NCBI GenBank assembly: GCA_018650165.1 | Contig: JABIGM010000041.1 | Location: 1-64,000 of the forward strand | Length of the DNA stretch: 64,000 nt | Direction: 5' to 3' | Source: Methanobacteriota archaeon | Lineage (GTDB): Archaea; Thermoplasmatota; Poseidoniia; Poseidoniales; Poseidoniaceae | In this document: positions 48,167 to 48,520 of the stretch, piece after piece | How positions within the stretch are numbered: position 1 is the stretch's first letter | How the letters are laid out: the number at the start of each line of letters is the position of its first letter | The notes under the pieces: generated by a model | What the model was told of the DNA's origin: nothing | Seen by the model: only the letters and a program-made list of their open reading frames with translations | Database searches by the model: none | Translations under genes and position numbers: made by a program

Positions 48167-48520
48167 GTGGTAGGAACTGATTTCTTTATTCGTCCAGCAA
48201 GTGGAACTTCAAGCGCCGATTGGCTTAGGCTGCCAAACGCAGATATTAGCGTTGTAATTACGCGTAGAATTACCCGTACTGTTCTCCATGGAGGAGAAGG
48301 TGATGATTTGGTAGATGAAGGCGCCGAATCGGCAGTATACACTGTTCGTGGAGAGATGGATGCTGAGGATTATAAGAAAATAATCAACATGTTCAGAAGC
48401 GGACAGCCCTACATCCATGACCCATTTGAAGAAAGAGACGTAAAAACTGTTTTCGGGAAAATGGAATTTGATGGAGCGGAAGGTCAATACACATTTGAAT
48501 TCATAGAAGATATTCGTTGA
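48167..48520 (+). CDS. Small hypothetical protein resembling the phage tail-tube/Dit/DNA_circ_N fold
   Basis: SD AGGTGAGG before GTG 48167 (alternative TTG 48101). Pattern ITRRITRTVLHGGEGDDLVDEGAESAVYTVRG, then a helix, then beta strands. The fold call is by-eye only. Confidence 0.6.
   Translation: MVGTDFFIRPASGTSSADWLRLPNADISVVITRRITRTVLHGGEGDDLVDEGAESAVYTVRGEMDAEDYKKIINMFRSGQPYIHDPFEERDVKTVFGKMEFDGAEGQYTFEFIEDIR

What the first reader, a model, noticed from the sequence alone, without database searches (positions are those of the whole stretch)
48167..48520. Small protein with a phage tail-tube/Dit-like sequence pattern inside a chromosomal Tad locus
Seen: a 117-aa protein with TRRITRTVLHGGEGDDLVDEGAESAVYTVRGEM, a helix (AEDYKKIINMFRSG), then YIHDP...KTVFGKMEF...YTFEF. 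Inference by eye: this follows the R-x-[VI]-xxxx-PG-x-x-G-xxxx-D-x-G-xxxxx-strand pattern of siphophage distal-tail (Dit), DNA_circ_N and GpU proteins, which form hexameric rings. No other phage gene is nearby. A domesticated ring-forming tail protein upstream of TadB/C/A could act as a channel or scaffold, which is not a known Tad or T4P component.
Basis: inference. Interest (0 to 1): 0.7.

Follow-up and report, generated by a model that had tools for sequence, protein, structure and literature searches.

The report
Tail-tube-fold protein leading archaeal pilus-motor operon
A small soluble protein of a marine Group II archaeon is predicted to fold like a phage tail-tube or tube-initiator protein, yet it is a conserved cellular gene that leads a four-gene operon for a Tad/Epd-like pilus motor, a pairing I did not find described in the papers I searched.

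Summary
The ORF is real: 48167-48520, +, 117 aa, GTG start behind a Shine-Dalgarno-like site. The window is archaeal (Poseidoniales, Marine Group II), not bacterial.

Two AlphaFold2 models were made, one of this protein and one of a relative about 25% identical (pLDDT 87 and 90). Both match almost only phage tail-tube, tube-initiator, Dit and Hcp structures. The best match is the N-terminal domain of Mu gp43-type hub proteins (Z 10.8, 102 of 102 residues). No sequence or profile method reaches significance.

No phage, sheath or baseplate gene was found nearby or in six Poseidoniaceae genomes. In all 75 Poseidoniales loci complete enough to measure, the gene sits 8-22 nt upstream of TadB-TadC-TadA, behind a conserved upstream motif.

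One Thalassarchaeaceae clade lacks exactly these four genes. It keeps RPA and the RPA32-like gene, which excludes an RPA-subunit role. This is most simply one deletion event.

Outside the order, the motor and this protein family each occur without the other.

Most likely (about 0.45) it is a lineage-specific cytoplasmic accessory of the pilus motor. Ring formation and binding are unproven.

Earlier follow-ups of this scan reached a similar reading on other genomes.

The parts
48117..48129 (+). Conserved intergenic motif CAACAGGTTCAAG (AAYA-N2-3-TTSAAK), a candidate promoter or regulatory element of the four-gene operon
   Evidence: The motif lies 46-51 nt before the start codon in 55 of 80 Poseidoniales loci, and TTSAAG is present in 64 of 80. 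It is not enriched in the window, and the other copies checked lie inside genes. Its function is inferred, not shown.
48156..48163 (+). Shine-Dalgarno-like AGGTGAGG, 3 nt before the GTG start
   Evidence: Read from the sequence. An SD-like site lies within 20 nt of the start in 70 of 80 loci.
48167..48520 (+). p117: a 117-aa soluble acidic protein (pI 4.5, no hydrophobic segment) with a predicted tail-tube/tube-initiator fold. It has a long beta-hairpin (residues 20-63, nt 48224-48355), which carries the invariant RR-TRT...G-E-D-L-DEG-ES motif, and a helix (residues 66-77).
48530..49102 (+). TadB-like platform protein with a single T2SSF domain (190 aa)
   Evidence: PF00482, E 3.9e-11. It lies 9 nt after the p117 stop (median 9 nt, range 8-22, in 75 loci).
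49107..49838 (+). TadC-like platform protein with a single T2SSF domain (243 aa)
   Evidence: PF00482, E 1.1e-9. Weak UpsF/ArlJ matches.
49828..51078 (+). TadA/CpaF-sized secretion ATPase (416 aa)
   Evidence: PF00437, E 3.5e-41. FlaI 3e-73 and TadA family 2.5e-58, both below the curated cut-offs. Its stop overlaps the stop of the convergent SAP-domain gene.
56902..57417 (+). Stand-alone archaeal type IV pilin (Pilin_N), a candidate filament subunit for this motor (tentative)
   Evidence: PF07790, E 3.2e-10. It was found in 5 of 5 Thalassarchaeaceae genomes that have the four-gene block and in 0 of 5 without it. Those genomes are related, so this is a hint only.

Best explanation
p117 is a cytoplasmic, acidic, single-domain protein with the fold of phage tail-tube and tube-initiator proteins. 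The closest structure is the N-terminal domain of Mu gp43-type baseplate hub proteins. It belongs to a small cellular protein family that was found only in Thermoplasmatota archaea among the genomes searched. In Poseidoniales, one paralogue became fixed as the first gene of a four-gene operon, p117-TadB-TadC-TadA. That operon encodes the split membrane platform and ATPase of an Epd/Tad-like type IV filament machine, and its pilin is encoded elsewhere. I infer that p117 is a lineage-specific cytoplasmic accessory of this motor. By analogy with its fold, it would act as an oligomeric, probably ring-shaped, adaptor or scaffold at the ATPase/platform. This is the place that FlaH, TadZ or other clade-specific small proteins occupy in related systems. 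Shown here: the ORF, its conservation, the predicted fold, the operon anatomy, the absence of phage genes, and independence from RPA. Inferred: oligomeric state, binding to the motor, and any effect on pilus assembly.
For: Fold. The model of p117 has pLDDT 87. Foldseek on PDB returned almost only tail-tube, hub, Dit and GTA proteins; the best hit is the monocin tube 8qhs_A at E 4.8e-4. An all-against-representatives search gave Z 8-9.5 over 105-116 residues for the SPP1 tube, the 80alpha tube, Hcp1 and others. The viral structure library returned DUF6046, DNA_circ_N, Dit-like and minor or major tail proteins at E 7e-5 to 1e-3. A second model, of relative P0181 (about 25% identical, pLDDT 89.6), matched Milano 8fqc_U1 at 2e-5 and Mu 9ki1 at 2.4e-5, with Z 10.8, rmsd 2.7 A and 102 of 102 residues aligned. 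Chain 9ki1_0 is Mu DNA circularization protein N. The protein atlas names Phage_P2_GpU and DNA_circ_N as the nearest named clusters, at 0.91.

Link to the motor. All 80 Poseidoniales loci keep p117 directly before TadB-TadC-TadA wherever the contig reaches. The p117-to-TadB gap has a median of 9 nt (8-22), against 60 nt (45-368) to the upstream RPA32-like gene. A conserved motif and an SD site precede p117. In 21 Thalassarchaeaceae genomes, the 8 with a TadA orthologue all have p117 within about 3 kb, and 12 have neither. In five of those 12, RPA and the RPA32-like gene abut the downstream SAP-domain gene, so exactly the four genes are missing.

Cellular, not viral. No GPW_gp25 or sheath gene was found in the window's genome or in five near-complete relatives, and the controls did ring.

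Presence in RNA libraries. Identical contigs from RNA libraries of two studies cover p117, and one bridges the p117/TadB junction. This shows presence only.

Precedent. Clade-specific uncharacterised cytoplasmic proteins are a known feature of archaeal T4P loci (PMC4858521, section 17).
Against: The five genomes without the block form one clade on an RPA tree (100/99). The 'lost together' evidence is therefore most simply a single deletion, not repeated co-loss.

Outside Poseidoniales the two do not travel together. A TadA orthologue (48-54% identical) was found in 13 sampled genomes and the p117 family in 7, with only one genome in common (G146). There the genes are on different contigs, and the TadB-TadC-TadA string has no p117.

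Paralogues about 48% identical stand alone among metabolic genes in the same genomes.

No sequence-level homology to any phage family was shown.

Both structures are predictions from shallow alignments.
Confidence: 0.45

Rival explanations
1. Inherited neighbour with its own function. p117 would be one of several paralogues of a small beta-rich Thermoplasmatota protein whose job has nothing to do with pili, for example binding or chaperoning other proteins as Hcp rings do. It would merely share a transcript with the motor genes in Poseidoniales.
For: Paralogues and distant relatives sit in unrelated contexts. These include FMN reductase/thiolase, NikR/TM2/SelO and TGT/PurF. In two pairs of related genomes they lie directly downstream of large secreted proteins, an S8 subtilase with CARDB and PKD/NosD/Ig-like surface proteins. 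The motor exists without p117 in the sister group f3 (6 of 8 genomes have TadA, 0 of 8 have p117) and elsewhere. The co-loss is a single event.
Against: The tight 8-22 nt coupling to TadB is kept across an order in which RPA itself has diverged to about 48% identity. The deletion boundary falls exactly between the RPA32-like gene and p117. The operon-linked copy is strongly conserved.
Confidence: 0.3
2. Third, RPA14-like subunit of the archaeal RPA. The order RPA, RPA32-like, small protein recalls the Pyrococcus RPA41/32/14 trimer.
For: The upstream genes are RPA (NF005554, E 1.6e-77) and an RPA32-like protein. The latter shows weak matches to P. abyssi RPA32 (E about 1e-3) and an RPA_C winged helix in 7 of 16 homologues. 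The small gene's size and position fit. One RNA-library contig spans the RPA32-like gene's end and the p117 start.
Against: Neither model gave OB-fold matches among the listed hits; the lists are filled with tail-tube proteins. A whole clade keeps RPA and the RPA32-like gene with no p117 anywhere in the genome. The helix lies mid-chain rather than at the C-terminus, where RPA14's trimerisation helix sits (my knowledge of RPA14).
Confidence: 0.03
3. Remnant of a prophage, a tailocin or a contractile injection system. The gene would be a leftover or still-working tail part.
For: The predicted fold, and the weak atlas neighbours Phage_P2_GpU and DNA_circ_N.
Against: No phage, sheath or baseplate gene was found in the window's neighbourhood, in the paralogue loci, or genome-wide in six genomes. 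The position is fixed in 80 of 80 loci of an order, with conservation typical of a gene under purifying selection. No PHROG family matched.
Confidence: 0.03

Closest known systems
N-terminal tube-like domain of phage Mu gp43 (DNA circularization protein N, Pfam DNA_circ_N PF07157) and its Milano and 7-7-1 baseplate homologues
   Same: It is the best structural match: Foldseek E 2e-5 to 7e-5, and Z 9.8-10.8 with all 102 residues of the relative's model aligned at 2.7-3.1 A. By eye, the conserved motifs fall at equivalent places: RR at the start of the hairpin, D-x-G after its tip, and G-x-x-x-H-x-P-F/G after the helix.
   Different: p117 is one domain of 102-117 aa. The phage proteins are 400-500 aa, multi-domain, and sit in baseplates. 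The profile-profile comparison is not significant (P 0.31). There is no Pfam hit and no phage context.
Phage, tailocin and GTA tail-tube proteins, siphophage Dit, and T6SS Hcp
   Same: The fold is the same: a beta-sandwich, a long hairpin and one helix. Z is 8-9.6 for the monocin, SPP1, lambda and GTA tubes, Hcp1 and SPP1 Dit.
   Different: Those proteins work with sheath, baseplate, tape-measure or T6SS genes. None of these was found here. Ring or tube assembly of p117 is unproven.
Epd-like and Tad type IV filament cores (M. maripaludis Epd; bacterial TadB/TadC/TadA-CpaF), and the CdiP pilus machinery of Cuniculiplasma divulgatum (Thermoplasmatales)
   Same: Two adjacent platform genes with one T2SSF domain each are followed by the ATPase (PMC6668835). 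As in CdiP, the platform is split and the pilins are encoded elsewhere (PMC12448462).
   Different: In the texts I read, none of these is described with a tail-tube-fold protein. Epd and Tad carry FlaH or TadZ as a second ATPase, and CdiP carries two ATPases. This operon has one ATPase and p117.
Clade-specific uncharacterised cytoplasmic proteins of archaeal T4P loci (Makarova et al. 2016, PMC4858521)
   Same: These are small soluble proteins tied to one T4P clade, proposed to be auxiliary structural or regulatory parts.
   Different: The listed ones are Zn-ribbon, helical, coiled-coil or alpha+beta proteins of other arCOGs. A tail-tube fold is not among them.

Membership tests
Tail-tube / Hcp / Dit / tube-initiator fold superfamily | Beta-sandwich with a long beta-hairpin and a flanking helix | tested here: met
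   Two AF2 models (pLDDT 87 and 89.6). Hit lists are filled almost only by this superfamily, with best Z 10.8 over 102 of 102 residues. These are predicted structures, not solved ones.
Tail-tube / Hcp / Dit / tube-initiator fold superfamily | Assembly into hexameric (or pseudo-hexameric) rings that stack or cap a tube | not testable with these tools
   This needs SEC-MALS, native mass spectrometry or cryo-EM of the purified protein. No usable computational verdict was obtained (see Tried and rejected).
Tail-tube / Hcp / Dit / tube-initiator fold superfamily | Encoded with other tail, contractile-injection or T6SS genes (sheath, gp25-like baseplate, tape measure) | tested here: not met
   Neighbours are cellular genes. 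PF04965 and PF04984 were not found in the window's genome (80% complete) or in five relatives 92-97% complete, while the control genomes rang.
Pfam DNA_circ_N (PF07157), Phage_P2_GpU (PF06995), Sipho_tail, T6SS_HCP | Significant match to the family profile | tested here: not met
   There was no Pfam hit for p117 or for 8 relatives at E up to 1 and no PHROG hit. hhalign of the family against a Mu gp43 alignment gave P 0.31; that profile was shallow, so distant homology is not excluded.
Epd/Tad-like type IV filament system (the operon as a whole) | T2SSE-family ATPase preceded by two adjacent single-T2SSF-domain platform genes | tested here: met
   PF00437 at 3.5e-41, and PF00482 at 3.9e-11 and 1.1e-9. 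This is the arrangement described for Epd and Tad in PMC6668835.
Epd/Tad-like type IV filament system (the operon as a whole) | Pilin with a class III signal peptide, and a prepilin peptidase | tested here: inconclusive
   A Pilin_N protein lies 5.8 kb downstream and was found with the four-gene block in 5 of 5 genomes and in 0 of 5 without it. It is not shown to be this motor's substrate. The prepilin peptidase was not searched for.
Epd/Tad-like type IV filament system (the operon as a whole) | Secondary ATPase (TadZ/FleN-like or FlaH/KaiC-like) in the locus | tested here: not met
   No such domain occurs among the genes from 39312 to 53583. It was not searched for genome-wide.
RPA14 (small RPA subunit) | OB fold with a C-terminal trimerisation helix, occurring together with RPA70-like and RPA32-like subunits | tested here: not met
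   No OB-fold structure appears among the listed matches of either model. RPA and the RPA32-like gene persist without p117 in a whole clade.

The most novel reading that the evidence does not exclude
The p117 ring would be a working conduit or docking collar on the cytoplasmic face of a Tad/Epd-like motor. The machine would then be a hybrid of a type IV filament engine and a tail-tube-like channel that moves DNA or protein rather than only building an adhesive pilus. The flanking RPA, RPA32-like and SAP-domain DNA-binding genes would be functional partners, for example in handling incoming or outgoing single-stranded DNA.
Probability: 0.06. Interest if true: 0.85.

Novelty: new variant of a known kind. 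Interest (0 to 1): 0.55.

Why it matters
Marine Group II archaea are among the most abundant archaea in the surface ocean, and none is in culture. Their surface machines are therefore known only from sequence.

Here a fold known from virus tails, tailocins, gene transfer agents and the type VI secretion system appears as a conserved cellular gene. It has none of its usual partners and is joined to a type IV filament motor instead.

If p117 does bind the motor, it would add a new class of accessory to type IV filament machines. It would also be a further example of the tail-tube module being reused outside injection devices.

If it does not, the family is still an uncharacterised cellular use of this fold in an archaeal phylum. 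It would be worth a structure and an oligomer-state measurement.

Tried and rejected
1. My first idea, after seeing RPA and an RPA32-like gene upstream, was an RPA14-like OB-fold subunit. The fold searches and the genomes that keep RPA without p117 rejected it.

2. Complex prediction with four copies of p117 (alignment A5) gave 'no answer': median score 0.34 against a mark of 0.42, runs 0.68/0.34/0.31, controls 0.00. This counts neither for nor against self-association.

3. Sequence methods found no significant match: Pfam, NCBIfam and PHROGs, and a PDB profile search whose best hit was retinol-binding protein at E 0.6. hhalign was tried against Mu gp43 N-terminus, the Mu tube protein and a 13-sequence gp43 alignment (P 0.3). 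The gp43 alignment placed the motifs sensibly but without significance.

4. The exhaustive search of 1.8 billion representatives found only 65 clusters and no informative fusion. The two long multi-repeat hits (P0179, P0183) look like chance matches to the acidic hairpin tip.

Neighbourhoods came from the search for related loci, the genome search and the fetch from genomes instead.

6. The intergenic motif GGTTCAAGTCC resembles a tRNA T-loop. No tRNA gene lies at the junction or anywhere in the window. The motif is not enriched in the window, and the copies I checked lie inside genes. The idea of an integration scar was dropped.

7. Small ORFs in p117's position before TadB in other lineages are unrelated: a likely spurious low-complexity frame, a protein that reads by eye like a PIN domain, and a membrane protein. 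The 121-aa ORF after the G146 ATPase is a cupin.

8. RNA-library contigs show that the sequence is present in metatranscriptome libraries. They cannot give transcript ends, strand or level, and DNA carry-over is possible.

Full report
**Observation**

The longer frame from the TTG at 48101 is not the gene:
- Most of the 244 homologous clusters are 117 aa and align from residue 1.
- An SD-like site, AGGTGAGG, lies 3 nt before the GTG. A comparable site occurs in 70 of 80 related loci.

The protein is acidic (pI 4.5) and hydrophilic. It has no segment that could span a membrane or act as a class III signal peptide.

Names attached to homologues and loci show that the window is from a Marine Group II archaeon (Ca. 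Poseidoniales, Thermoplasmatota), not a bacterium.

**Fold**

An AlphaFold2 model built from 34 homologues has pLDDT 87 and pTM 0.75. It shows a short strand, a long hairpin (residues 20-39 and 48-63), a helix (66-77) and three or four more strands.

Three searches with this model agree:
- Foldseek against the PDB returned almost only tail-tube, tube-initiator, hub, Dit, GTA and injection-system tube proteins. The best hit was the monocin tube 8qhs_A, E 4.8e-4.
- A search that does not depend on Foldseek gave Z 8-9.5 over 105-116 residues for the SPP1, 80alpha and monocin tubes and for Hcp1. These values are only a little above the typical best Z of 7-8 for models with no clear match, but the list is nearly uniform in kind. 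The single highest row, Z 9.5, is an unnamed S. aureus protein (4qxz_B).
- The viral library gave DUF6046, DNA_circ_N, Dit-like and tail proteins at E 7e-5 to 1e-3.

As a check, I modelled a relative only about 25% identical (P0181; pLDDT 89.6). Its best matches:

| Match | Foldseek E |
|---|---|
| Milano baseplate chain 8fqc_U1 | 2e-5 |
| Mu 9ki1_u | 2.4e-5 |
| Mu 9ki1_0 | 3.4e-5 |
| 7-7-1 9rku_A1 | 7e-5 |

The structural aligner gave Z 10.8 at 2.7 A over all 102 residues, and 60 chains reached Z 8 or more. Chain 9ki1_0 is Mu DNA circularization protein N, i.e. gp43.

The protein atlas names Phage_P2_GpU and DNA_circ_N as the nearest named clusters, at a weak 0.91.

It is not borne out at the level of sequence statistics:
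- There is no Pfam, NCBIfam or PHROG hit, and no hit by sequence to any solved structure.
- A profile-profile comparison with a Mu gp43 alignment places the motifs at sensible positions but has P 0.31.

**Surroundings**

On the + strand the window carries, in order:
- a Hel308-like helicase;
- two TldD/PmbA genes;
- RPA (NF005554, 1.6e-77);
- a 319-aa protein;
- p117;
- two proteins with one T2SSF domain each;
- a 416-aa T2SSE ATPase.

A convergent SAP-domain protein follows on the minus strand.

The 319-aa protein looks RPA32-like. A profile of 16 homologues gives weak matches to Pyrococcus abyssi RPA32 (E about 1e-3), and 7 of the 16 show an RPA_C winged helix.

The split platform followed by the ATPase is the arrangement of Epd-like and Tad systems (PMC6668835). 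It is also that of the CdiP pilus machinery of Cuniculiplasma, which likewise keeps its pilins elsewhere (PMC12448462).

**Which neighbours does p117 belong to?**

All 80 Poseidoniales loci fetched keep the order RPA, RPA32-like, p117, TadB, TadC, TadA wherever the contig reaches. At this scale synteny alone cannot decide. Three further observations tie p117 to the motor and not to RPA.

1. *Spacing.* The gap from p117 to TadB has a median of 9 nt (8-22). The gap from the RPA32-like gene to p117 has a median of 60 nt (45-368).

2. *Upstream signals.* That larger gap holds a conserved AAYA-N2-3-TTSAAK motif, 46-51 nt before the start, in 55 of 80 loci, followed by the SD site. This is a plausible promoter or regulatory site, though unproven.

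3. *Presence and absence.* In a sample of 301 Thermoplasmatota genomes:
   - All 43 Poseidoniaceae, including this one, have both p117 and the ATPase orthologue.
   - Of 21 Thalassarchaeaceae, 8 have the ATPase orthologue (72-78% identical), each within about 3 kb of p117. Twelve have neither. One (G063) has only a diverged stand-alone p117 relative.
   - In five of the genomes without the genes (91-97% complete), RPA and the RPA32-like gene are followed directly by the SAP-domain gene and its neighbours. Exactly p117-TadB-TadC-TadA is missing.

This excludes an RPA14-like role, which had been my first guess.

The evidence has a limit. On an RPA tree, the five genomes form one well-supported clade (100/99) nested among Thalassarchaeaceae that carry the four genes. 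The pattern is therefore most simply one clean deletion, not repeated co-loss.

**The wider family**

The exhaustive search of 1.8 billion representatives found only 65 clusters. In the genome sample, the family occurs in Poseidoniales and in seven genomes of other Thermoplasmatota families.

Poseidoniaceae genomes often carry one or two extra paralogues about 48% identical, including two in this genome (contigs C39 and C66). These stand alone among metabolic genes.

The short (about 103 aa) relatives in other orders form a separate deep clade. Their contexts are:
- in two pairs of related genomes, directly downstream of large secreted proteins: an S8 subtilase with CARDB, and PKD/NosD/Ig-like surface proteins;
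- elsewhere, beside unrelated genes.

No phage gene was seen in any of these loci. GPW_gp25 and sheath profiles found nothing in this genome or in five near-complete relatives, although the control genomes rang.

Outside Poseidoniales, the motor and the p117 family do not co-occur:
- The ATPase orthologue is in 13 sampled genomes, including 6 of 8 of the sister group f3.
- The p117 family is in 7.
- Only G146 has both. There they are on different contigs, and its TadB-TadC-TadA string has no p117.

The pairing is therefore a Poseidoniales innovation, and the motor does not need p117 in general.

**Expression**

Contigs identical to the window occur in RNA libraries from two marine studies, P2 (run X2) and P3 (run X5). 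They cover p117. One bridges the p117/TadB junction (48439-48618), and another spans the end of the RPA32-like gene and the p117 start (48022-48172). Contigs show presence only. DNA carry-over cannot be excluded.

**Interpretation**

The best-supported reading has two parts. p117 is a cellular protein with the tail-tube fold. In Poseidoniales it leads the operon of an Epd/Tad-like pilus motor, and it probably serves as a lineage-specific cytoplasmic accessory. Archaeal T4P loci are already known to collect clade-specific small cytoplasmic proteins of unknown role (PMC4858521).

By analogy with every characterised member of the fold, a ring-shaped oligomer that docks on the hexameric ATPase or the platform is the natural mechanism. 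Neither the ring nor the docking is shown.

The main rival is that p117 has its own function and only shares a transcript with the motor. The stand-alone paralogues and the lack of co-occurrence outside the order favour that rival. I put the accessory model at about 0.45 and the inherited-neighbour model at about 0.3. The RPA-subunit and phage-remnant readings are at about 0.03 each.

**Relation to earlier work in this scan**

Follow-up reports on other genomes (e1-5723337, e1-3228565, e1-743544) reached much the same reading. I re-derived it independently here and add three points:
- the loss of the four-gene block is a single event;
- the motor and the family are uncoupled outside Poseidoniales;
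- a stand-alone pilin 5.8 kb downstream is present in 5 of 5 Thalassarchaeaceae genomes tested that have the block and in 0 of 5 tested that lack it.

Noticed in passing
window 56902-57417 (+): A stand-alone archaeal type IV pilin (Pilin_N, E 3.2e-10). Homologues were found in 5 of 5 Thalassarchaeaceae genomes that carry the p117-TadBCA block and in 0 of 5 that lack it. It may be the filament subunit of this motor. The genomes are related, so the pattern may reflect one event.
   Followed up: partly
window 48117-48129 (+), and the same position in loci L001-L080: A conserved intergenic motif CAACAGGTTCAAG (AAYA-N2-3-TTSAAK) lies 46-51 nt before the p117 start in 55 of 80 loci. It resembles a tRNA T-loop, but no tRNA gene is there. 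It is a candidate promoter or operator of the operon.
   Followed up: partly
window 47145-48104 (+): The 319-aa protein after RPA has no Pfam hit on its own. A profile of 16 homologues weakly matches P. abyssi RPA32 (E about 1e-3), and 7 of the 16 show an RPA_C winged helix. It is a likely RPA32-like partner, and its start overlaps the end of the RPA gene.
   Followed up: partly
G000 contigs C39:19435-19737 and C66:1176-1475 (loci L111, L112); G037 C1:1152351-1152650 (L113): Extra paralogues of p117 (about 48% identical to it, 71-87% to each other) stand alone among metabolic genes such as FMN reductase/thiolase and NikR/TM2/SelO. Their role is unknown.
   Followed up: partly
L115:5799-6539(-) with L115:6688-10458(-); L118:8464-8805(+) with L118:4723-8454(+); L114:8675-9067(-) with L114:9093-11684(-); L117:8085-8363(+) with L117:4982-7873(+): In two pairs of related non-Poseidoniales Thermoplasmatota genomes, the short p117 relative lies directly downstream, on the same strand, of a large secreted protein. 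These are an S8 subtilase with CARDB and PKD/NosD or Ig-like surface proteins. This may hint at a role with secreted proteins, or may be chance.
   Followed up: no
window 51075-52763 (-); L131:8253-9257 (-): The convergent SAP-domain protein is 562 aa here. In L131, one of the genomes lacking the four-gene block, the ORF is 334 aa, and in all five such genomes only about 155-175 aa align to it. In L131 its stop directly abuts the stop of the RPA32-like gene.
   Followed up: no
PDB 4qxz_B (external): The single best structural match of the p117 model (Z 9.5, 88 residues) is an unnamed 'hypothetical protein from Staphylococcus aureus'. I did not find out what it is. It may be a phage or SaPI tail-related protein.
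   Followed up: no
L143 (G146:C2:139000-153000), 6827-9754 (+): A bare TadB-TadC-TadA string (ATPase 51% identical to the window's) sits among metabolic genes (SDR, thiolase, cupin, HMA) in another Thermoplasmatota order. It has no leading small gene and no pilin nearby.
   Followed up: partly
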